A stretch of DNA of 64,000 nt from a virus (IMGVR_UViG_3300034157_000063), one strand, 5' to 3'. Shown: positions 14,797-48,200, counted from the first letter of the stretch. Notes: generated by a model from the letters alone, not told the origin. Translations and numbers: made by a program.

Positions 14797-15408
14797 TTAT
14801 TTGTATTGTGTGTTACGGTGTCTTTTCCAATTTCTGATACGCCAGTCGCTTCTTCCTTCGTCATCCCATGCAGTAGTGATAACACCTTTTGGTCTGCGAT
14901 TTTTGACGTTGAATTCAATTTCATCTTCATCAACTTCGCTGGTAGCATCTTTAAGCAAGGAAAGCGTTTGTGGTTTTCTGCGATAGCGGTAACGTCCGCG
15001 TTTCCCAGTATGAGGCACAGCACCTTCACCATTCCAAAACTGTTTACCGTAACCGATGTAAGTTTTTTCTTTCTTTTCTTTGAAAACAAACTCAGCAAAG
15101 TCAAGCACAGAAAGCTGTTCGTTGTATTCATTTTTGAGGATGAAATCACCGTATACTTTCATTTCGCCATAACGGTTAAGCTTTTTGTAAAGCTCACCGT
15201 AAGTTTGTCCCAATCCTTCGTGTTTCTTTTTGGCAAAGCGACGGTTGGCATAACCATCCCAAATTTTGTCACGATCAGGGGACGCAAGTTCCACTGCTAA
15301 CGAGTAGACAATGAAGTTGTATCCCAACTTGTTAAATGCTTCTGCCTTATTTTGGTAGGTATTAACGATACCTTCCTTGTTGATAAGGTAAATAACTTCT
15401 GTTTTCAT
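14797..15408 (-). CDS. basic protein with WDD..RNWK..R..QY C-terminus (related to 30886..31470)
   Basis: AGGAG RBS; Arg/Lys-rich C-terminal half. Confidence 0.8.
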   Translation of the reverse strand: MKTEVIYLINKEGIVNTYQNKAEAFNKLGYNFIVYSLAVELASPDRDKIWDGYANRRFAKKKHEGLGQTYGELYKKLNRYGEMKVYGDFILKNEYNEQLSVLDFAEFVFKEKKEKTYIGYGKQFWNGEGAVPHTGKRGRYRYRRKPQTLSLLKDATSEVDEDEIEFNVKNRRPKGVITTAWDDEGRSDWRIRNWKRHRNTQYK

Positions 15409-15429
15409 AAAGACTCCTATTAAGTTTCC

Positions 15430-15474
15430 TTAATATTTGTCTACGATCACCTTTAATTCGTATTTGAAAAACAT
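15430..15474 (-). CDS. uORF/leader peptide MFFKYELKVIVDKY
   Basis: GAGG RBS; 3' end overlaps the hairpin masking the downstream SD. Confidence 0.7.
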   Translation of the reverse strand: MFFKYELKVIVDKY

Positions 15475-15595
15475 AATGTGCTTCCTCTTTAATATGTTGC
15501 CATTATAACTGTTTTGATGATAACAATCAAGCGTTTTCTTTACATAATATTTTTTTTTGGTATGATGTAAAAATTATATAAATTGGAGCCTTTAC

Positions 15596-16177
15596 ATGCA
15601 CGCTACATCTTTAATTCGTCAAAGTATATTGTTATGCTTTGCAGCCGGACTGTCATTCACTGCTATGGCAGATACCCCATCTGATAATTTTAAGCCTGCT
15701 TACAATGTCCAAGGACTTGATACACAATTCATTGATATTCCCCCAGAGAAAAAAGTTACATCCATTGATATGAACCTTCTGGGTCTAAAGGATACTGTTG
15801 TTTCTTTTAGAGAACGTCATCAAGAAGATTTGTTTGAGGTTTTGTGTATCACTAAAAAGCCATTTTTCGGCAAGGCTCATCATAGTCTGGTGTGTGTTAA
15901 CGAATTGAAAGAACTGGGTGAAAAACACACCTTTGATGGTCAAAATTTTGGTAATTTCATGGATGAGCCGACTGTCATTAACGTTGAGCCGGGATTTAAA
16001 GTGACTAAAATTAACTTTGATGTGGATATTGGCAGTGAACCTACGTTTGAAGTCGATAGAATGTTAGACAGTGATTTCCCAGAAGTTTACACGTTGGTCA
16101 GAATTGACCCACAAACTAATGCATGGAATGGCAGTCGTCAATTCGTTGTTAAAGAAGGTGCTAATCCAAAAGAGTAA
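15596..16177 (+). CDS. exported hypothetical protein
   Basis: Signal peptide ending AMA; GGAG RBS. Confidence 0.75.
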   Translation: MHATSLIRQSILLCFAAGLSFTAMADTPSDNFKPAYNVQGLDTQFIDIPPEKKVTSIDMNLLGLKDTVVSFRERHQEDLFEVLCITKKPFFGKAHHSLVCVNELKELGEKHTFDGQNFGNFMDEPTVINVEPGFKVTKINFDVDIGSEPTFEVDRMLDSDFPEVYTLVRIDPQTNAWNGSRQFVVKEGANPKE

Positions 16178-29008: not shown

Positions 29009-29800
29009 ATGAAAATTAAAACCTTAGATCTAGAAGATTGGAAAGTAAGATGTTCATACAGTGAACAATTAAAGAACTTTGAGAATGAATTCACTTATCC
29101 ATTAGGTGATAAATCCTTTTATATTCGACATGGGTATCAAGGTGCCTATGATTACTTTTCATTCTTTGAACAACTAGGTGAAGTTCATTATATGGTTGTT
29201 GAAGATGATGATAACAAGGTTATTGGTGCGGGCTGTGCCGTTCTCCGGCATTTGAATGGTGAAAATATTTGGTATTTGTGTGACTTTAAAATTATGAAAA
29301 GTTTTAGAGGTAAACACATCTTGGAAAAAATGTTGCTAAAATATTTTTTCAGATTCTACAAAAAGTCTCAAAAGATGTATTTTGTCAACATGAGTCATCA
29401 GAAAGATAACCGCTTAATTAAGCGTGTAACTGGATTGTTTCATTTGTTTCCTATCAAAGCTGTTGATCTTTACTTCTTTGAATGGACAATGAAAGAATTT
29501 ACTGCAGATAATCTTAATTTCGATGATTACATAATTTTAACGAATAAAAACAAGAAAGATATTGTGGTTGATGATGAAATTTTTGATATTTATCATGTGA
29601 TTGATAAAAACTCATACATTGATGTTGATAAATTTCATATAGCTGACTTATCTAAAATCAAGAGCACTGATACTCTAATGTATAGCAGTCCGATGAATGA
29701 AAGCGTAGAAAAAATACTACAATTCAGAAAACCATCTACTATTGGTAGCTTTGTTAGCCATCGTTTTAAAATTGAAAATTATTACAGTGTTGAAATTTAA
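29009..29800 (+). CDS. GNAT-family acyltransferase
   Basis: WYLCDFKIMKSFRGKHI acyl-CoA motif; 12 nt after upstream gene. Confidence 0.7.
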   Translation: MKIKTLDLEDWKVRCSYSEQLKNFENEFTYPLGDKSFYIRHGYQGAYDYFSFFEQLGEVHYMVVEDDDNKVIGAGCAVLRHLNGENIWYLCDFKIMKSFRGKHILEKMLLKYFFRFYKKSQKMYFVNMSHQKDNRLIKRVTGLFHLFPIKAVDLYFFEWTMKEFTADNLNFDDYIILTNKNKKDIVVDDEIFDIYHVIDKNSYIDVDKFHIADLSKIKSTDTLMYSSPMNESVEKILQFRKPSTIGSFVSHRFKIENYYSVEI

Positions 29801-29922: not shown

Positions 29923-30756
29923 GTGACCTTTCATATGATAAATAGTGATAATATAAAAAATGAGTTAACAAAAATATTTGAAGATCTTAAATCTTTAAAT
30001 GATATAGATAATGAAATACAGTTAGATTTCGTAGAACCTAAAAGTATTGACATACCAGATATTACTAATCTTTTTAGAGAAGTAGATATATTTCATAGTG
30101 ATTTGTTGTATGAAATTGAATTTAATAAAAATAAAACTTATAATCAAAAAACAATTAATGAAAATTTTGAAAAAATTGAAAAAAGTTTTTTAAATTATCA
30201 ATTGTTAAGAAAAGATATTTCTAATTATGAAGTTCAACTATTAGATAAAAAAACAGATTATCAAGGTTTTTCATCCCATATTGAAAATTTAAACAATGAA
30301 ATAACGAATATTAGACAACAATTAATTGACCATGAAAACGAATGCAATCAAGCACTCTTGGAATTACGTCAGCGTGAAAAAGACTTTCATAGTGATTCTT
30401 TAAATTCTATTGAAGATCTTGAAGAGTTAGATTCAAATAATAGTTCAAATTTAAGTGCAACGGATTTTGATAACCATCCATTACATAAAGTTTACAATGA
30501 CTATTCAAATTTTTCTGACCTGATGGATATAGAAAAAAATAATTTAAAAAACAGTTTAAATTTAAGTGTTAAGGATTTGGAACAAACGAATGATAAATTA
30601 TCAAATTTTTCTAATTCTTTTGTTGAATATAAAAAAGAATTTATTTCAAAAATAAATAGTGTCAAACCAATTTTAACAATAATCGAAAAAGATATTAACG
30701 TTTTTTTGAATTCTTATATTGTTAAAAATAAACCAACAAATAAAAAAACTATTTAA
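29923..30756 (+). CDS. coiled-coil hypothetical protein (very low GC)
   Basis: Long ORF; possible distant relative of 20222/21291; Lys-rich tail. Confidence 0.6.
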   Translation: MTFHMINSDNIKNELTKIFEDLKSLNDIDNEIQLDFVEPKSIDIPDITNLFREVDIFHSDLLYEIEFNKNKTYNQKTINENFEKIEKSFLNYQLLRKDISNYEVQLLDKKTDYQGFSSHIENLNNEITNIRQQLIDHENECNQALLELRQREKDFHSDSLNSIEDLEELDSNNSSNLSATDFDNHPLHKVYNDYSNFSDLMDIEKNNLKNSLNLSVKDLEQTNDKLSNFSNSFVEYKKEFISKINSVKPILTIIEKDINVFLNSYIVKNKPTNKKTI

Positions 30757-30817
30757 TTCATTGACAATTTTTTAATATTGTTTTAAAATCTAAAAATCAA
30801 AATAAATGAGAGGTCAC

Positions 30818-30871
30818 ATGTTATTTTTATTCGCTAAGTTTTATGGAGGTAATTTTCGATGTTTTAACTAA
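30818..30871 (+). CDS. uORF/leader peptide MLFLFAKFYGGNFRCFN
   Basis: GAGG RBS; overlaps 16-bp hairpin masking downstream SD. Confidence 0.7.
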   Translation: MLFLFAKFYGGNFRCFN

Positions 30872-30885
30872 TATCGGAGGTTACT
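30848..30885 (+). promoter_or_regulatory. SD-sequestering hairpin
   Basis: GGUAAUUUUCGAUGUU pairs fully (with GU) to AAUAUCGGAGGUUACU. Confidence 0.75.
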
Positions 30886-31470
30886 ATGTTTTACACTTAC
30901 AAGATTTATGGTTTCGATGGTAAAATTTACTATGAAGAATCAAAGAAAAGTTTGTTCGAAGTCATTGATGACTTTGGTTTAAGACGATTTTTACATCGTT
31001 TTTGCAATACGTTTGAAATTGGCGAAGGCACTACTCTTCATTCTGAGAAAAGGGTTCAGGTTGGTGGTTGGTTCGATGAGAATGATGGTCATAAGTTTTA
31101 CCCACTCACTCAAAGCGAAACAGTTTGCCGCACAGGTGATTTCAGAATAGAAACGTTTGCAGGTGCAACTGTTGATATTTATGAGTTGTCTTATGAGTAT
31201 CGCCAGTCAAGAGATTTGTTGAAAGCTGCAAAGCCCGAACGTGTTCGCAATTCTTGGGCAAAACAAAAAGATAGACCCCTAGTTGTTAAGTATCCTGCTG
31301 GTGTCCGTCAGGAGCATGTTCAAAACGTTTTTGATAAAATGGATGGTTATGTAAAACTTAGACAAAGTAGAGTGAATGCTGTTAAACATGAATACTATTT
31401 CGAAAGTTATAGCATAAAAGGCAAGCCGAACTCTTGGAAAAACAGCAAAAAATCAAAGCAGTGGATGTGA
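30886..31470 (+). CDS. basic protein with SWK..KK..QW C-terminus (related to 14797..15408)
   Basis: GGAGG RBS; GDFxI and C-terminal motif shared. Confidence 0.8.
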   Translation: MFYTYKIYGFDGKIYYEESKKSLFEVIDDFGLRRFLHRFCNTFEIGEGTTLHSEKRVQVGGWFDENDGHKFYPLTQSETVCRTGDFRIETFAGATVDIYELSYEYRQSRDLLKAAKPERVRNSWAKQKDRPLVVKYPAGVRQEHVQNVFDKMDGYVKLRQSRVNAVKHEYYFESYSIKGKPNSWKNSKKSKQWM

Positions 31471-31538
31471 ATCCATTGCTTTTTTGTTGTTATAATTATC
31501 AAAATAATGTATAATGGTTCATCTTTAATGGAGCCTTT

Positions 31539-32405
31539 ATGATGTTAACTTTCGCAAACAATCTTTATTATAAATTTATTTCTTGTTTTTCTATATTTCT
31601 CAATAATAAACATTGGTTAAGGAAACATATTGCTCAAATTTTACCACCATTGTCAAGAATAAAAAAAATAAAATCAGACATATCAAATCTCTATTATGAT
31701 GGAGGCTATATTGGTAAAGTAAGTTTTGATAATAAAACGGTGATTATCAAAGATCCAAAAATGCTGACCTTTCTTAACAAAGACAATGCTGACTGCTTTC
31801 ATGATGATTTTTTAGAATTATCACAAATGGTCTATTTTGTTTTTTGTTACCTTTTTATGCCATCAAATTCAGAAGATAATTACAAAGATCGATGGTCAGT
31901 TTTTTTTAAAGCTTTGAAACATGATAAAATAACATCATTTGGTAAAACAATAAAAGCAACTGTTGATTTATTAATAAATTTAAACAACAATAAAACACCA
32001 CCTGACTTTGCAAATACTTTGAAAAATTGTAACAGGACACCTCCTATTTTAACTGAATTTGGAGTTGTTTTGAATTCTGATGGCTTAGAGTGTAAGCTAT
32101 TGCATTATACGGTAAAAATACCTAATTCAATGGACCATATTTCAGTTGTTTTACTAGACAGAGACGGCCAAAAATATTATAAATTAAGTAATATTTATGG
32201 ATTAACTAGATCTGAACTTATAGATAGCGGAATGGGTTTTGAGTGTTTTAAATTCAATATTAACGAATTTTTGAAATATTCAACAGTGTCTGAATTCATT
32301 GGTGATTTTTCAATGATGATGGTCAAAGGGATTTATCCAGATTACAAAGAAGACAAACATCCTACCATTCGAGATAAAATTATTTTTGACATGGCGGGCT
32401 ATTAA
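31539..32405 (+). CDS. hypothetical protein, tail family, paralog pair 1A
   Basis: Ends IIFDMAGY. Confidence 0.8.
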   Translation: MMLTFANNLYYKFISCFSIFLNNKHWLRKHIAQILPPLSRIKKIKSDISNLYYDGGYIGKVSFDNKTVIIKDPKMLTFLNKDNADCFHDDFLELSQMVYFVFCYLFMPSNSEDNYKDRWSVFFKALKHDKITSFGKTIKATVDLLINLNNNKTPPDFANTLKNCNRTPPILTEFGVVLNSDGLECKLLHYTVKIPNSMDHISVVLLDRDGQKYYKLSNIYGLTRSELIDSGMGFECFKFNINEFLKYSTVSEFIGDFSMMMVKGIYPDYKEDKHPTIRDKIIFDMAGY

Positions 32406-32465
32406 AAATAAATTGTAAATGCTATTAAATTATTGTATAATTGGCTATATTTTGTGGAGATTCAT

Positions 32466-33338
32466 ATGAGCAGCAATCCTTTTAAAAAGCTTTATTCTAA
32501 TATTGTATTTGGCATGACAATGCTGGATAAGGATAAACATTGGTTGCTAAAACGTATCGTCCATGAACTACCAGCATTTTCAAGTGTTAAAACGATGTCA
32601 TTTGATAAAGGTGTTTTGTTGTATGGGGATAATGACATAGGTAACCATTCAGAAGATCATACATGTGCCATTGTCAATAGTGAAAGGATGTTACATCTAC
32701 TGCATAAAAATGATTATGATAGCTTTCATGCTGATTTTATTGATCTGTCACAAATGACTTATTTCATTTTCTGTTATGTCTTTAATCCTTTTGAACCTGA
32801 GAAAACGTTTACGGAATGTTGGAAAGACTTTATGGGCAAGTCCCATTCTCAGCAGGTTCTTGCTTCTTTTAACAATAATAAGAAAGCATTGCTTACTTTG
32901 CCCTTCTCACTGCACAATAATCAGCCTATTGCTGGTTTAGAGAACACTTTAGTTAATGCTCGCAAGTCACCGCCTATTTTTTCTAATTGTGGTGTTGTCT
33001 TTGATAAAGCAGGAGATGAATTTAAGCTATTGCATTATACGGTTACAAAACCATTTGTTGAAGGACATGTGTCGGTTGTATTAATTGAAAAAAATGGTCA
33101 AAAATATTACAAAGTCAGTGTGACCGCAGGTAAAGATAATGCCGAATTGTTTAAAACCAATGAAGCGGGTGACGAATACTTCACATTTGATTTTAGTGAA
33201 TTTACAACTTATAACAAAGTTTCTGAATTTGTAGCTCAATTTTCAATGGCATTAGTCCGAGGTATTAATCCAGAGTATAAAGACGATGAGTTACCTAATA
33301 GACGATATAAAGATATTTTTGATATGATGGGTTATTAA
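32466..33338 (+). CDS. hypothetical protein, tail family, paralog pair 1B
   Basis: GGAG RBS; shares FHxDFxxLSQM and KLLHYTV; ends DIFDMMGY. Confidence 0.8.
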   Translation: MSSNPFKKLYSNIVFGMTMLDKDKHWLLKRIVHELPAFSSVKTMSFDKGVLLYGDNDIGNHSEDHTCAIVNSERMLHLLHKNDYDSFHADFIDLSQMTYFIFCYVFNPFEPEKTFTECWKDFMGKSHSQQVLASFNNNKKALLTLPFSLHNNQPIAGLENTLVNARKSPPIFSNCGVVFDKAGDEFKLLHYTVTKPFVEGHVSVVLIEKNGQKYYKVSVTAGKDNAELFKTNEAGDEYFTFDFSEFTTYNKVSEFVAQFSMALVRGINPEYKDDELPNRRYKDIFDMMGY

Positions 33339-46044: not shown

Positions 46045-46121
46045 GTCTGCGTAGCTCAGTTGGATAGAGCATCCGCCTTCTAAGCGGATGGTCGTTGGTT
46101 CGAATCCAACCGTAGACACCA
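46045..46121 (+). tRNA. tRNA-Arg(UCU)
   Basis: Cloverleaf GTCTGCG/CGTAGAC, loop CTTCTAA, TTCGAAT, CCA. Confidence 0.95.
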
Positions 46122-46140
46122 AATTTAGGAGTAACCTTTA

Positions 46141-46542
46141 ATGCTATATGAAGAACACATTGTTCTAATTAACAAAGGTAAATCATTGTCAGTTGGTGAT
46201 GATGTGAAAGTTTTGATTGATTATTCGTTATGTTCTGGTAAAGTTTCTAAGGTGAATCCGAAAGGTGTTAAAGTTTTTATCATGGATGCTTTGGGTTGTA
46301 TTGTTTATGAATCTAATTTTAAATACGAGAAAGTTATTAAATTAGGTACAAAGGGTGTTCTTGTTTGGGAAGCATGGAAAGGTAGAAATGGTCGTGGTGG
46401 CTATCGGTTTGATACTGTCATGTATCCAGAGTTGGCAGGAAATGTTGAAGATATTCGTGGTAATACTTATTTGTATGAAACTTCGTTTGGGTTTGTTGGT
46501 CAGCGTGAGCAACAAATGTATGCTGATAAATTTGTAAAATAG
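46141..46542 (+). CDS. hypothetical protein in tRNA cluster
   Basis: AGGAG RBS. Confidence 0.75.
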   Translation: MLYEEHIVLINKGKSLSVGDDVKVLIDYSLCSGKVSKVNPKGVKVFIMDALGCIVYESNFKYEKVIKLGTKGVLVWEAWKGRNGRGGYRFDTVMYPELAGNVEDIRGNTYLYETSFGFVGQREQQMYADKFVK

Positions 46543-46553
46543 TGGTTATTTAA

Positions 46554-46630
46554 GGGACTTTAGCTCAGTTGGTTAGAGCGTCCGACTCATAATCGGCAGG
46601 TCGTAGGTTCAAGTCCTACAAGTCCCACCA
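46554..46630 (+). tRNA. tRNA-CAU (Ile2-like; Met not excluded), copy 1
   Basis: GGGACTT/AAGTCCC, loop CTCATAA, CCA. Confidence 0.9.
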
Positions 46631-46656
46631 AATTTAGAAATAAATTAAATAAAAGC

Positions 46657-46685
46657 TTGATTAGTGTCAGATGTTAATGTATAAT
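46657..46685 (+). promoter_or_regulatory. sigma70 promoter preceding CUA tRNA
   Basis: TTGATT-N17-TATAAT. Confidence 0.7.
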
Positions 46686-46717
46686 TACTCAACACAAACA
46701 AGCAGTAAAGATTAAAT

Positions 46718-46793
46718 GCTTTGGTAGCTCAGCGGTAAGAGCAGCGGTCCCTAAAACCGATGGTCACGGGTTCGAATCCCGTCCTTAGCACCA
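46718..46793 (+). tRNA. atypical tRNA with CUA (amber) anticodon
   Basis: D and T arms intact, loop CCCTAAA, CCA end; two U-U mismatches in acceptor stem; C33. Confidence 0.7.
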
Positions 46794-46797
46794 GTTT

Positions 46798-46934
46798 TTC
46801 TACGCCGTTCGATTTGCTGAATCCGATTAAGTTTGGACACCGAATTGACTAGTGTGTTGCAAGTTACTAGGAAAATCGCCAGAAACACTTGTGTTTTAGT
46901 GCGAGGATGCTGTTAGCTTACGCAGCGGGTAGAA
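46798..46934 (+). ncRNA. candidate structured ncRNA between tRNAs
   Basis: Closing stem TTCTAC/GTAGAA plus several internal hairpins; GC above background. Confidence 0.45.
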
Positions 46935-46940
46935 TTTTAC

Positions 46941-47024
46941 GCCCGAGTGGTGGAATGGTAGACGCGGGGGACTTAAAATCCCCTTCCTTACGGAGTGCCG
47001 GTTCGAGTCCGGCCTCGGGCACCA
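46941..47024 (+). tRNA. tRNA-Leu(UAA)
   Basis: GCCCGAG/CTCGGGC, loop CTTAAAA, long variable arm, CCA. Confidence 0.95.
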
Positions 47025-47098
47025 GTTTTGATGGATTAAAACAATTCTTAATGTTAAAAGAACTTAATTGTTCAAAGAACTTAACTAGAGGATTTTTT

Positions 47099-47302
47099 AT
47101 GGATACTATTTTGAAAGTGTATACTTGTGATTTTGGATGGATGGGAAGCATTGTTGTATTAGCTACATCAAAGGAAGACGCTCGCAAGTTGATGGAAAAG
47201 TATGATAACTATCGCTGTAATGTTTGTAATGGTGAAGAACCTGAAATTGAAGAGTTCGCTCTTGAAGCTGGGTTCGTTCATTGTGATTATGGTGATACGT
47301 GA
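47099..47302 (+). CDS. small hypothetical protein
   Basis: GAGG RBS; true start lies after tRNA-Leu. Confidence 0.7.
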   Translation: MDTILKVYTCDFGWMGSIVVLATSKEDARKLMEKYDNYRCNVCNGEEPEIEEFALEAGFVHCDYGDT

Positions 47303-47326
47303 TTTAAAAGAGCTTCGGCTCTCTAC

Positions 47327-47403
47327 GGGATTTTAGCTCAGTTGGTTAGAGCATCCGACTCATAATCGGCAGGTCGTAAGTTCAAGTCTTACAAGTCCCA
47401 CCA
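47327..47403 (+). tRNA. tRNA-CAU (Ile2-like), copy 2
   Basis: Four differences from copy 1; CCA. Confidence 0.9.
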
Positions 47404-47425
47404 AATTAAGATAATAGGATTACTT

Positions 47426-47677
47426 ATGAACAGTAATGATTTAATAAAATGGCAAGATAAAAACGAACGTCTTAATAAAGATGTCGAATTAACACTTGGT
47501 GTTCAATTAAAGGATTCTGCTGGTCATTGTGGGGTTGTTGTTAGGTTAGAACCGCCGACTGAATCATTTCAAGGCTGTATTTACGTTTGGCAGTCAGATA
47601 GAATTGGTTATGGTGACGATAATTGTGAGCATTATACCTACCATTACTGGAAACGTAATTTGCGTGTTGTTGAATAG
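47426..47677 (+). CDS. small hypothetical protein
   Basis: AGGA RBS. Confidence 0.7.
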   Translation: MNSNDLIKWQDKNERLNKDVELTLGVQLKDSAGHCGVVVRLEPPTESFQGCIYVWQSDRIGYGDDNCEHYTYHYWKRNLRVVE

Positions 47678-47694
47678 TAAAATATAGATTATAT

Positions 47695-47770
47695 TGGCGA
47701 ATAGCTCAGTTGGTAGAGCAGGTGACTGTTAATCACCGGGTCACAGGTTCGAGTCCTGTTTCGCCAGCCA
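47695..47770 (+). tRNA. tRNA-Asn(GUU)
   Basis: TGGCGAA/TTCGCCA, loop CTGTTAA, G73, CCA. Confidence 0.95.
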
Positions 47771-47788
47771 TATTAAGAGGTGCATGTT

Positions 47789-48112
47789 ATGGGATTAGGT
47801 CTAATACCAAAGTATGGTTTCTCATACAAAAAAGCATTTGATGAACGAGACTCTTCATTTTTTGAAAATCTCGAAAATTTTAACATCAGTCATGAAAGTG
47901 CTGACTTAACCTACACTTTTGATTTTTCATCAATGATGTGGGTTTATGAAGGTGAGACATTTTTTATTGGTAATGACCTAGTTCCAAGTAACGTGTTAAA
48001 ATTAGCAGTCCGTGAAGCCTTTATTAAAATTCTGGCGTCTGGCACTATTCCAGCCGATTACTGCAACGTTGCAGATTGGGAAGAAGGTTTAATTTTCCAA
48101 GTAATAAGTTAA
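47789..48112 (+). CDS. hypothetical protein
   Basis: GAGGTG RBS. Confidence 0.65.
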   Translation: MGLGLIPKYGFSYKKAFDERDSSFFENLENFNISHESADLTYTFDFSSMMWVYEGETFFIGNDLVPSNVLKLAVREAFIKILASGTIPADYCNVADWEEGLIFQVIS

Positions 48113-48124
48113 CAAGTTTTATAT

Positions 48125-48200
<76 letters not shown>

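What the first reader, a model, noticed from the sequence alone, without database searches (positions are those of the whole stretch)
30808..31470. uORF-gated basic protein, copy 2, with a 16-bp anti-SD stem and nested Met-Phe-stop minigene
Seen: Phe-rich leader MLFLFAKFYGGNFRCFN; 30848-30863 pairs completely (with GU) to 30870-30885, burying GGAGG. An internal GGAGGT (30845) sits 8 nt before ATG-TTT-TAA (30859-30867). The same architecture precedes the diverged relative at 14797..15408 although the nucleotide sequence differs, which argues for selection on the mechanism.
Basis: partly seen in the sequence, partly recalled or inferred. Interest (0 to 1): 0.7.

Follow-up and report, generated by a model that had tools for sequence, protein, structure and literature searches.

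The report
Leader mini-gene gating a phage protein
A giant phage-like genome puts a tiny translated leader gene and an RNA hairpin that hides the ribosome-binding site in front of a basic protein of unknown function. The same leader design travels with this protein family through many large phages, including cultured ones, so it is a conserved translational control device and not a chance fold.

Summary
A near-consensus sigma70-type promoter (30761-30789) is followed by a Shine-Dalgarno (SD)-led 17-codon leader ORF (30818-30871). A 16-bp hairpin (30848-63 with 30870-85) pairs all five bases of the main GGAGG. The 194-aa ORF (30886-31470) ends in its own terminator. The hairpin block is the best-conserved part of the locus: 87% identity to a relative whose protein gene is 59% identical.

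The gene at 14797-15408 is a true remote homologue, but this shows only with broad profiles (hhalign 95%, E 2e-8). It has its own conserved 14-codon leader ORF and hairpin.

Every family member whose upstream DNA I inspected, bar one 59-aa short form, has an SD-led leader ORF of 3-17 codons. This covers about 17 lineages, including cultured phages Phosso, CcrColossus, CcrPW, OLIVR5, IG49, ORM_20 and vB_OspM_OC. In each, the leader's codons or stop codon pair with the main SD or start codon.

Most likely mechanism: translation of the leader melts the hairpin, and main-ORF initiation is coupled to leader termination. This is untested at the bench.

The nested Met-Phe-stop minigene and the "Phe-rich" reading are not supported, because Phe-Arg follows from the anti-SD sequence. 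The protein's function stays unknown. The scan had already noted this unit on other DNA (e1-5694216, e1-5693245).

The parts
30761..30789 (+). sigma70-type promoter, TTGACA-17 nt-TAAAAT (11 of 12 matches)
   Evidence: Similar promoters stand at the same place in L002 and L004.
30808..30813 (+). Shine-Dalgarno of the leader ORF (GAGAGG), 4 nt before its ATG
   Evidence: Every relative has an SD 5-9 nt before the leader ATG.
30818..30871 (+). Leader ORF, 17 codons plus TAA. Its last five residues and its length are invariant in relatives.
30848..30885 (+). 16-bp hairpin with a 6-nt loop. The 5' arm is leader codons 11-16. The 3' arm holds the last two bases of the leader stop codon and the main SD.
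   Evidence: -17 kcal/mol, z -5.2; 96% of cells paired in 4 sequences; 87-92% identity, the best-conserved block.
30859..30867 (+). Nested ATG-TTT-TAA, out of frame inside the 5' arm and loop; judged incidental
30876..30880 (+). Main Shine-Dalgarno GGAGG, 5 of 5 bases paired in the hairpin
30886..31470 (+). Main ORF, 194 aa (P0001): a basic protein with a conserved SWK..KK.KQWM tail, of unknown function
31455..31482 (+). Intrinsic-terminator-like hairpin (12 bp plus a T run) overlapping the main stop codon
15502..15530 (-). Paralogous unit: promoter TTGATT-17 nt-TATAAT
   Evidence: L011 has TTGATA-17-TATAAT.
15430..15474 (-). Paralogous unit: 14-codon leader ORF plus TAA, preceded by the SD AAGAGGAAG
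   Evidence: It has the same length, and 9 of 14 residues are shared with the 437-kb relative.
15412..15441 (-). Paralogous unit: hairpin of GAC/GUC around a 7-bp stem. It contains the leader stop codon, with the main SD AGGAG (15418-15414) on its 3' side.
   Evidence: 10 of 10 pairs kept, 2 with compensatory changes on both sides.
14797..15408 (-). Paralogous main ORF, 203 aa (P0002), with tail WK.HR.TQYK; a remote homologue of P0001

Best explanation
This is a monocistronic early-type transcription unit whose protein output is gated by a translated leader ORF.

1. In the free mRNA, the main SD is locked in a 16-bp hairpin, so new 30S subunits cannot bind (inferred from the fold).
2. Ribosomes load at the accessible SD and AUG of the 17-codon leader.
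3. They unwind the 5' arm while reading codons 11-17.
4. They terminate at a UAA at the junction of the loop and the 3' arm. At that point the ribosome covers the whole 3' arm.
5. After release, either the same ribosome re-initiates at the AUG 14 nt downstream, helped by the now free GGAGG, or a new 30S binds before the stem refolds.

Main-ORF synthesis is therefore tied to leader translation and termination. This is translational coupling by RNA unfolding and/or termination-reinitiation.

The leader-plus-hairpin unit is inherited together with a widespread family of basic phage proteins of unknown function. P0001 and P0002 are two distant paralogues of that family in this genome.

Shown here: anatomy, fold stability, conservation, covariation, and association with the family. 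Inferred: that the leader is translated, that the stem represses, and that coupling activates.
For: 1. Anatomy and stability. Searches show 5 of 5 SD bases paired, -17 kcal/mol and z -5.2. This is the most structured initiation region of 71 genes.

2. Conservation within the clade.
- Leader length, leader SD, the last five leader residues, the stop position and the stem are kept in L002, L003 and L004/L005, although the main proteins are only 73% and 39% identical.
- The hairpin-plus-SD block is 92% and 87% identical, against 80% and 59% for the main ORF and 55-68% for the flanks.
- All stem changes are G-U to G-C switches that keep pairing.

3. The paralogue. Locus 14797-15408 has a 14-codon leader of conserved length (9 of 14 residues, with synonymous changes). 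Its hairpin has 2 compensatory pairs against the 45%-identical relative.

4. Homology of the two proteins. hhalign gives 95.4% probability, E 1.9e-8, over 156 columns.

5. Spread through the family.
- Homologues in cultured phages Phosso, ORM_20, CcrPW, CcrColossus, IG49, OLIVR5 and vB_OspM_OC all carry an SD-led leader ORF of 3-15 codons. So do the uncultured loci L021-L024, L033, L050 and L083.
- In the 13 loci where spacing was measured, the leader ends 14-30 nt before the main AUG. It ends 26-30 nt before it in L021-L024.
- The leader's codons or stop codon pair with the main SD and/or AUG.
- In nine of these loci the stem keeps 100% of 89 pair cells, with 3 pairs changed on both sides.

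6. Leader peptides differ freely in length and sequence across the family. This fits a device that needs the act of translation and not a particular peptide.

7. Reverse test. Of 8 IMG/VR matches to the strict leader motif, 4 are followed by a family member at HMM E <= 2e-14, and a fifth is cut off.

8. The RNA-unfolding and scanning models are established for closely spaced ORFs (PMC12548453).
Against:
- Covariation inside the P0001 clade is one-sided only, from 4 sequences. Both arms are also constrained by coding and by the SD.
- The 5' arm (UUYCGUUAGGU) is nearly invariant in nine distant loci while the 3' arm varies. The loop of the window's clade is invariant too. Pure coupling does not require either, so something else may read the RNA or the peptide end.
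- Constitutive coupling does not by itself explain why the family needs it.
- A 59-aa short form (L025/L026) showed no leader ORF.
Confidence: 0.6

Rival explanations
1. Regulated ribosome-stalling or termination sensor, in the style of ermC/cat/cmlA or of TnaC/SpeFL. The main gene would be switched on only when a ribosome dwells at a particular leader codon, such as the single Arg codon (CGA here, CGU elsewhere), or at the stop codon. This would report the state of Arg-tRNA, release factors or a translation poison.
For: - The last five leader residues and the 6-nt loop are invariant in the window's clade.
- Nine distant loci end the leader in Phe-Arg-stop, with a nearly invariant 5' arm.
- Two unrelated loci share the leader start Met-Ser-Ile-Lys-Asn.
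- A ribosome with leader codons 10-14 in its P site would hold the 5' arm while the SD stays about 20 nt ahead. This geometry resembles the cat and cmlA leaders (my own knowledge).
- Earlier scan notes, which I did not test, report Arg- and Gly-codon leaders before the synthetase genes of the same genome (e1-5683754, e1-5683778).
Against: - Phe-Arg (UUY CGN) is exactly the complement of CGGAG. The peptide end therefore follows from the anti-SD plus a stop codon fixed in the stem.
- Other family members use leaders of 3-8 codons with no common residue. The paralogue in this window has no Arg or Gly in its leader.
- Stop codons vary (UAA, UAG, UGA) among the loci.
- A ribosome held at the stop codon would cover the SD rather than expose it.
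Confidence: 0.2
2. Autogenous translational operator. The basic product, perhaps an RNA binder, binds the conserved hairpin or the leader start and represses its own synthesis, as T4 gp32, RegA and ribosomal proteins do. The leader ORF would be secondary. This is compatible with coupling.
For: - Hairpin sequence is conserved beyond what pairing needs. The 5' arm is nearly invariant in nine loci whose proteins matched the window's P0002 or Phosso's protein at 25-43% identity where compared.
- The hairpin block is the most conserved segment of the locus.
- The product has a strongly basic, Trp-containing tail conserved across the whole family.
Against: - No binding evidence exists.
- Other lineages with the same protein tail have quite different hairpin sequences (IG49, OLIVR5, vB_OspM_OC, L023).
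- The protein matches no known RNA-binding fold.
Confidence: 0.1
3. Transcription attenuator of the pyrBI type. The hairpin followed by AUGUUUUAC would act as a weak intrinsic terminator, and a closely following ribosome on the leader ORF would prevent it.
For: - The terminator scan lists 30848-30885 with 5 T in the next 8 bases.
- The first codons of the main ORF (ATGTTTTACAC) are invariant at the DNA level in the four sequenced loci (window, L002, L003, L004).
Against: - The stem has only 3 G-C pairs and the U tract is interrupted.
- Family members in other phages have no T run after the hairpin (Phosso, CcrColossus and the paralogue). SD or AUG sequestration is the feature they share.
- No alternative antiterminator fold appears.
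Confidence: 0.05
4. Nothing functional: a chance short ORF and a chance stem in AT-rich intergenic DNA, or a free-standing micropeptide gene.
For: Short ORFs and A-U stems are frequent at 27% G+C. The 104-nt leader as a whole folds only modestly better than shuffles (z -1.85).
Against: - The local z is -5.2.
- The architecture is conserved in about 17 lineages.
- Stand-alone SD-led uORFs are rare in this window, 3 of 71 genes.
- Peptide sequence is not conserved across the family, which argues against a trans-acting micropeptide.
Confidence: 0.03

Closest known systems
Leader-peptide-dependent activation of plasmid replication-initiator translation: R1 tap-repA, ColIb-P9 repY-repZ, IncB repB-repA (my own knowledge; the tap/repA/copA gene set is listed in PMC5883639, and a repA leader peptide in an IncI2 plasmid in PMC8053102, abstracts only)
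   Same: A short SD-led leader ORF must be translated to open a structure that hides the RBS of the main gene. The leader stop lies at or near the structure and close to the main start.
   Different: - In the plasmid systems an antisense RNA blocks the leader RBS. No antisense promoter was seen here.
- ColIb-P9 and IncB also need a pseudoknot.
- Here the unit belongs to a phage protein family and is co-inherited with it over very large distances.
Translational coupling by RNA unfolding or ribosome scanning between neighbouring genes: MS2 coat-lysis, f1 genes VII-IX, rpmI-rplT (review PMC12548453)
   Same: The downstream RBS is silenced by secondary structure that the upstream ribosome melts. 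Stop-to-start distance is short (14-30 nt here).
   Different: Here the upstream ORF is not a gene with a product of its own. It is a 3-17-codon leader whose only evident role is to gate.
Ribosome-stalling translation attenuators (ErmCL-ermC, cat-86 and cmlA leaders) and arrest peptides (SecM-secA, MifM-yidC2); my own knowledge
   Same: A single hairpin sequesters the SD, and its 5' arm lies inside a short leader ORF.
   Different: - Those systems need a defined arrest peptide and an inducer, and the leader stop lies away from the main SD.
- Here no arrest motif is shared across the family, and the stop codon sits inside the hairpin next to the SD.
The same unit noted earlier by this scan on other DNA (e1-5694216, e1-5694203, e1-5693245)
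   Same: Small basic proteins with the W-K-x-x-R-K-x-Q-W/Y tail sit behind a tiny leader ORF whose stop lies in a hairpin covering the start. Those notes also read it as termination-reinitiation coupling.
   Different: - Those copies lie in tRNA gene arrays and are shorter.
- This report adds the long 194/203-aa forms, the profile link between the two paralogues, and the cultured-phage members.

Membership tests
Leader-ORF translational coupling (RNA unfolding / termination-reinitiation) | The upstream ORF has its own accessible SD and start codon | tested here: met
   GAGAGG lies 4 nt before ATG 30818 and is unpaired in the fold. An SD is present before the leader ATG in all 13 loci tabulated, and in L021-L024.
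Leader-ORF translational coupling (RNA unfolding / termination-reinitiation) | The downstream RBS is sequestered in a stable secondary structure | tested here: met
   5 of 5 SD bases are paired, at -17 kcal/mol and z -5.2. It ranks first of 71 initiation regions.
Leader-ORF translational coupling (RNA unfolding / termination-reinitiation) | The translated leader or its stop codon overlaps the structure, and the stop-start distance is short | tested here: met
   Leader codons 11-16 form the 5' arm. The stop lies at the junction of the loop and the 3' arm, 14 nt before the main AUG. The distance is 14-30 nt in the 13 loci tabulated and 26-30 nt in L021-L024.
Leader-ORF translational coupling (RNA unfolding / termination-reinitiation) | Main-ORF translation depends on leader translation | not testable with these tools
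   This needs reporter mutagenesis or ribosome profiling.
Ribosome-arrest / stalling attenuators (ErmCL, cat/cmlA leaders, SecM, TnaC) | A conserved arrest peptide motif | tested here: inconclusive
   The last five leader residues are invariant in the clade, and nine loci end in Phe-Arg-stop. These codons are the anti-SD itself. Other members have unrelated leaders of 3-8 codons.
Ribosome-arrest / stalling attenuators (ErmCL, cat/cmlA leaders, SecM, TnaC) | Induction by a ligand, an antibiotic or tRNA shortage | not testable with these tools
   No expression data are available.
Classical transcription attenuators (trpL, pheL, pyrL) | An intrinsic terminator (G+C-rich stem plus U tract) and a competing antiterminator fold | tested here: not met
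   The stem has 3 G-C pairs and is followed by AUGUUUUAC. No alternative fold appears. Relatives lack any U tract.
Classical transcription attenuators (trpL, pheL, pyrL) | A run of regulatory codons for one amino acid | tested here: not met
   The window's leader has 5 Phe in 17 codons, but never in tandem. The 39% relative has 4, and the paralogue's leader has 2.
Phage protein superfamily with the W-K-x-x-R-K-x-Q-W/Y tail (phrog_12793, phrog_13345, phrog_21860; all of unknown function) | Significant profile match over most of the length | tested here: met
   - The P0001-family profile against the P0002 family plus cultured-phage members gives hhalign 95.4%, E 1.9e-8, 156 columns.
- P0038, P0042 and the Phosso, CcrPW and vB_OspM_OC proteins hit phrog_12793. 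P0024 and P0036 hit phrog_21860.
- P0001 and P0002 themselves hit no PHROG or Pfam model.
Rfam cis-regulatory RNA families | A match to any curated covariance model | tested here: not met
   There was no match at E <= 1 over 30600-31000, and only two chance-level matches on the opposite strand over 15300-15650.

The most novel reading that the evidence does not exclude
The leader is not a passive coupler. It would be a conserved sensor of the termination step, or of Arg-codon decoding. On this reading the nearly invariant Phe-Arg-stop 5' arm is read by the ribosome. The sensor would switch on a widespread, uncharacterised basic phage protein that acts on the translation apparatus (tRNA, ribosome or release factors) when host defences or the phage's own takeover disturb translation. 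The family's frequent position beside phage tRNA genes would then point to an undescribed phage translation-surveillance module. So would the codon-sensing leaders reported before the synthetase genes of this same genome.
Probability: 0.15. Interest if true: 0.8.

Novelty: new member of a known kind. Interest (0 to 1): 0.5.

Why it matters
Leader-ORF gating of a hidden ribosome-binding site is textbook for plasmid replication genes and resistance genes. It is hardly documented as a conserved feature of a phage gene family.

Here the leader and the protein family stay together from AT-rich giant phages to cultured phages of Sinorhizobium, Caulobacter, Agrobacterium and Ochrobactrum. This has three consequences:
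- It marks the unknown protein as one whose dose or timing matters.
- It gives annotators a recognisable signature, since the leader ORFs are unannotated in all seven deposited genomes I looked at.
- It offers tractable laboratory systems to test both the switch and the protein's function.

It also shows that the "Phe-Arg" leader ends are a by-product of an anti-SD. That is a caution against reading amino-acid sensing into such leaders.

Tried and rejected
- **DNA and protein searches against phages.** DNA megablast of the locus found nothing. tblastn of P0001 found nothing.
- **Motif scans.** The clade-specific leader motif found only the 437-kb relative plus chance hits inside genes. The loose hairpin pattern gave 65 matches, of which 61 were unrelated. 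Only the strict form was informative.
- **Protein function.** Pfam gave no match. PHROGs returned only families of unknown function. The PDB sequence profiles and the ESM Atlas gave nothing usable.
- **Fold.** The first AlphaFold model, from 8 sequences, was poor (pLDDT 50). The second, from 23 sequences, reached pLDDT 80. It had no convincing PDB neighbour: Foldseek E >= 0.015, and VIA-align best Z 5.8 to ERH-like chains, inside the noise range. BFVD gave only uncharacterised phage proteins.
- **Narrow profile comparisons.** The first comparisons of the two families were negative. This would have wrongly refuted homology.
- **Rejected readings.**
  - The nested minigene as a working part.
  - A Phe-sensing attenuator.
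  - Antisense control: no minus-strand promoter lies over the leader.
  - A link between the window's amber-suppressor-like tRNA and these leaders: both leaders here end in UAA.
- **Literature.** Searches found no description of this leader or family. The library is incomplete, so this is not proof of novelty.

Full report
**1. What is in the sequence**

The window is AT-rich (about 32% G+C). It carries genes typical of giant phages:
- a cluster of seven tRNA genes, including one with anticodon CUA;
- arginyl- and cysteinyl-tRNA synthetase genes;
- a PBECR5 nuclease gene.

A relative on a 437-kb IMG/VR record is rated 98% complete as a virus.

- The promoter TTGACA-17-TAAAAT lies at 30761-30789.
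- GAGAGG lies 4 nt before ATG 30818.
- The leader ORF has 17 codons and ends at TAA 30869-71.
- A stem of 16 consecutive pairs, 5 of them G-U, joins 30848-63 to 30870-85 around a 6-nt loop.
- GGAGG 30876-80 lies inside the 3' arm.
- The main ATG is at 30886, and the 194-aa ORF runs to 31470.
- A terminator-like hairpin at 31455-82 overlaps the main stop codon.

**2. Is it more than chance?**

Folded locally, the stem is the minimum-energy and the centroid structure. It scores -17.0 kcal/mol, z -5.2, and none of 200 shuffles does as well.

I compared all 71 long ORFs of the window. This initiation region (-50..+6) is the most structured (mean -5.66, sd 3.07). The region of the gene at 14797-15408 ranks third.

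Stand-alone SD-led upstream ORFs ending 5-35 nt before a gene occur at only three genes.

**3. Relatives of the gene and of its leader**

P0001 has no Pfam or PHROG match. It has six close metagenomic relatives at 73-89% identity and a 39%-identical one on contigs of 437 and 604 kb.

Four loci with DNA could be read:
- All have a 17-codon leader with its own SD.
- The last five leader residues and the loop are invariant.
- The stem has 11-17 pairs (z -2.9 to -6.0).
- The changes in the stem are G-U to G-C switches that keep pairing. Of the cells, 96% are paired. Four pairs vary on one side and none on both sides.

The hairpin-plus-SD block is 92% and 87% identical to the two relatives. The main ORF is 80% and 59% identical, and the flanks 55-68%. 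Selection is therefore strongest on the RNA element.

**4. The claimed second copy**

On the minus strand the layout is as follows:
- promoter TTGATT-17-TATAAT at 15530-15502;
- a 14-codon leader at 15474-15430;
- a hairpin at 15441-15412 that contains the leader stop codon and abuts the SD AGGAG;
- the 203-aa ORF at 15408-14797.

The 45%-identical relative on the 437-kb record has a leader of the same length, with 9 of 14 residues shared and three synonymous differences. Its hairpin has the same shape and two fully compensatory pair changes.

BLASTP and two narrow profile comparisons found no similarity between P0001 and P0002. The picture changed after I widened both families:
- 21 representative clusters were added for P0001.
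- Further relatives were added for P0002.
- Seven proteins from cultured phages were added.

hhalign then aligned 156 columns, nearly end to end, at 95.4% probability and E 1.9e-8. An intermediate profile set had given 41%.

The two genes are therefore very distant paralogues. Shared motifs include a basic helix (V-K-I-R-x-K-R) and the tail S-W-K-x-x-K/R-K-x-Q-W/Y. Only these two copies are in the window.

**5. The leader follows the family**

tblastn led from P0002 to Sinorhizobium phage Phosso. From there it led to six further phages:
- Ochrobactrum phages ORM_20 and vB_OspM_OC;
- Caulobacter phages CcrPW and CcrColossus;
- Rhizobium phage IG49;
- Agrobacterium phage OLIVR5.

IMG/VR added L021-L024, L033, L050 and L083.

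In every one of these there is an unannotated SD-led leader ORF of 3-15 codons. It ends 14-30 nt before the main AUG in the 13 loci where I measured spacing, and 26-30 nt in L021-L024. The leader codons or the stop codon pair with the main SD and/or the main AUG.

Nine loci share a hairpin whose 5' arm reads UUY-CGU-UAG/UGA-G. This is Phe-Arg-stop, and it pairs with YUAAYGGAG. All 89 pair cells are standard pairs. Three pairs change on both sides, a value that 2 of 500 shuffles reach. Slid controls pair at 26-57%.

The one exception seen is a 59-aa short form (L025/L026), for which no leader ORF was found.

In the reverse direction, 4 of 8 strict motif matches in 2.9 million viral contigs are followed by a family member, and a fifth is truncated.

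**6. Mechanism**

The common denominator is not a peptide, since the leaders differ freely in length and sequence. It is a translated ORF that runs into, and stops inside, a structure that closes the main initiation site.

A ribosome reading leader codons 11-17 must unwind the 5' arm. At the stop codon it covers the 3' arm. After release, the SD and the AUG 14 nt downstream are transiently open to the same ribosome or to a new 30S subunit.

This is the RNA-unfolding and scanning kind of translational coupling reviewed in PMC12548453. From my own knowledge, it also resembles the tap-repA and repY-repZ leader devices of plasmids. I give it 0.6.

Not explained by plain coupling:
- The 5' arm is nearly invariant across nine distant loci while the 3' arm varies.
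- The loop is invariant in the window's clade.
- The leaders of L021 and of the Colossus-type phages start with the same five residues.

These points leave room for a termination- or Arg-codon-sensing switch (0.2), or for an operator bound by the basic product (0.1). A pyrBI-like transcription attenuator is unlikely (0.05), because relatives have no U tract after the hairpin.

**7.

The nested ATG-TTT-TAA is the out-of-frame reading of the conserved Arg-Cys-Phe-Asn codons. Its GGAGGT is a Gly-Gly codon pair that also forms the base of the stem, and it is replaced by TCTGGT in the 39% relative. ATG-NNN-stop occurs 178 times in the window, although this is the only one behind a full GGAGG.

Phe-richness follows from two things. 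U-rich anti-SD codons (UUU/UUC before CGN) pair with CGGAG, and the local G+C content is 27%.

**8. The protein**

With 23 sequences AlphaFold gives pLDDT 80. The model has an N-terminal alpha/beta domain (residues 1-113), two helices (138-171) and a disordered basic tail. No solved structure matches convincingly.

The nearest predicted viral structures are uncharacterised proteins of Aeromonas phage Ah1 and Serratia phage BF.

The conserved C-terminal module of about 60 residues also exists alone, at 59-75 aa (L025, L050). It is also fused to another domain in L023. The function is unknown.

**9. Relation to earlier notes of this scan**

Notes e1-5694216, e1-5694203 and e1-5693245 describe the same tail motif behind leader-plus-hairpin units on other DNA, and they reach the same mechanistic reading. 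I reached the architecture independently before reading them.

This report adds:
- the profile proof that the two window genes are homologous;
- the cultured-phage members;
- the explanation of Phe-Arg-stop as an anti-SD by-product.

**10. Verdict**

This is a real and conserved leader-ORF gate. It is a new member of a known kind of control, attached to a widespread phage protein family of unknown function. Interest is moderate (0.5).

Noticed in passing
window 46045-48200: Seven tRNA genes separated by small ORFs. One of them (46718-46793) has anticodon CUA, so it would read the amber stop codon. Both leaders studied here end in UAA, so I saw no link.
   Followed up: no
L002 (contig Ga0308158_10000001): A 73%-identical homologue with the same leader lies on a metagenome contig of 1,859,102 bases. 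That is far larger than any described phage genome. It could be a host chromosome with an integrated element, a concatenated assembly, or something new.
   Followed up: no
L019 901-1065 (Brevundimonas phage vB_BpoS-Kikimora, ON529857.1): The family's tail module matches the plus strand here, where the record annotates only a minus-strand CDS. Three tRNA-Ser genes lie just upstream. The gene is probably missed or called on the wrong strand.
   Followed up: no
L025/L026 641-820; L050; L023 638-1108: The C-terminal basic module of the family (R-x-P-x-T ... W-D-D ... W-K-x-x-R-K-T-Q/K-W/Y-K) also occurs as a stand-alone protein of 59-75 aa. It also occurs as the N-terminal part of a 156-aa protein with an unrelated C-terminal half.
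   Followed up: partly
L021 leader and L014/L018 leaders: The leader ORFs of an uncultured 359-kb phage and of Caulobacter phages CcrPW and CcrColossus begin with the same five residues (Met-Ser-Ile-Lys-Asn) and end in Phe-Arg-stop. The leaders differ in length.
   Followed up: no
L042, L047, L049, L057, L059, L061, L066, L068, L069, L074-L076, L082, L086: Fourteen IMG/VR contigs share an identical 27-nt hairpin-like stretch (TATTTG CGTTAGG AGAT CTTAATGGAG) behind an 8-codon ORF. I found no start codon after it. It is a different, unexplained recurrent element.
   Followed up: no
window 31539-32405 and 32433-33338; L004 3616-4524: Two tandem paralogous genes of about 290-300 aa follow the main ORF, and a homologue follows it in the 437-kb relative. 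The GNAT-like gene upstream (29009-29800) is also syntenic. The window has an extra coiled-coil ORF (29923-30756) inserted between them.
   Followed up: no
L013, L015, L016, L017 leaders: In ORM_20, IG49, vB_OspM_OC and OLIVR5 the leader's own start region (..CAUG..) also pairs with the main start region. The two AUGs then close one stem, which would partly mask the leader start as well.
   Followed up: no
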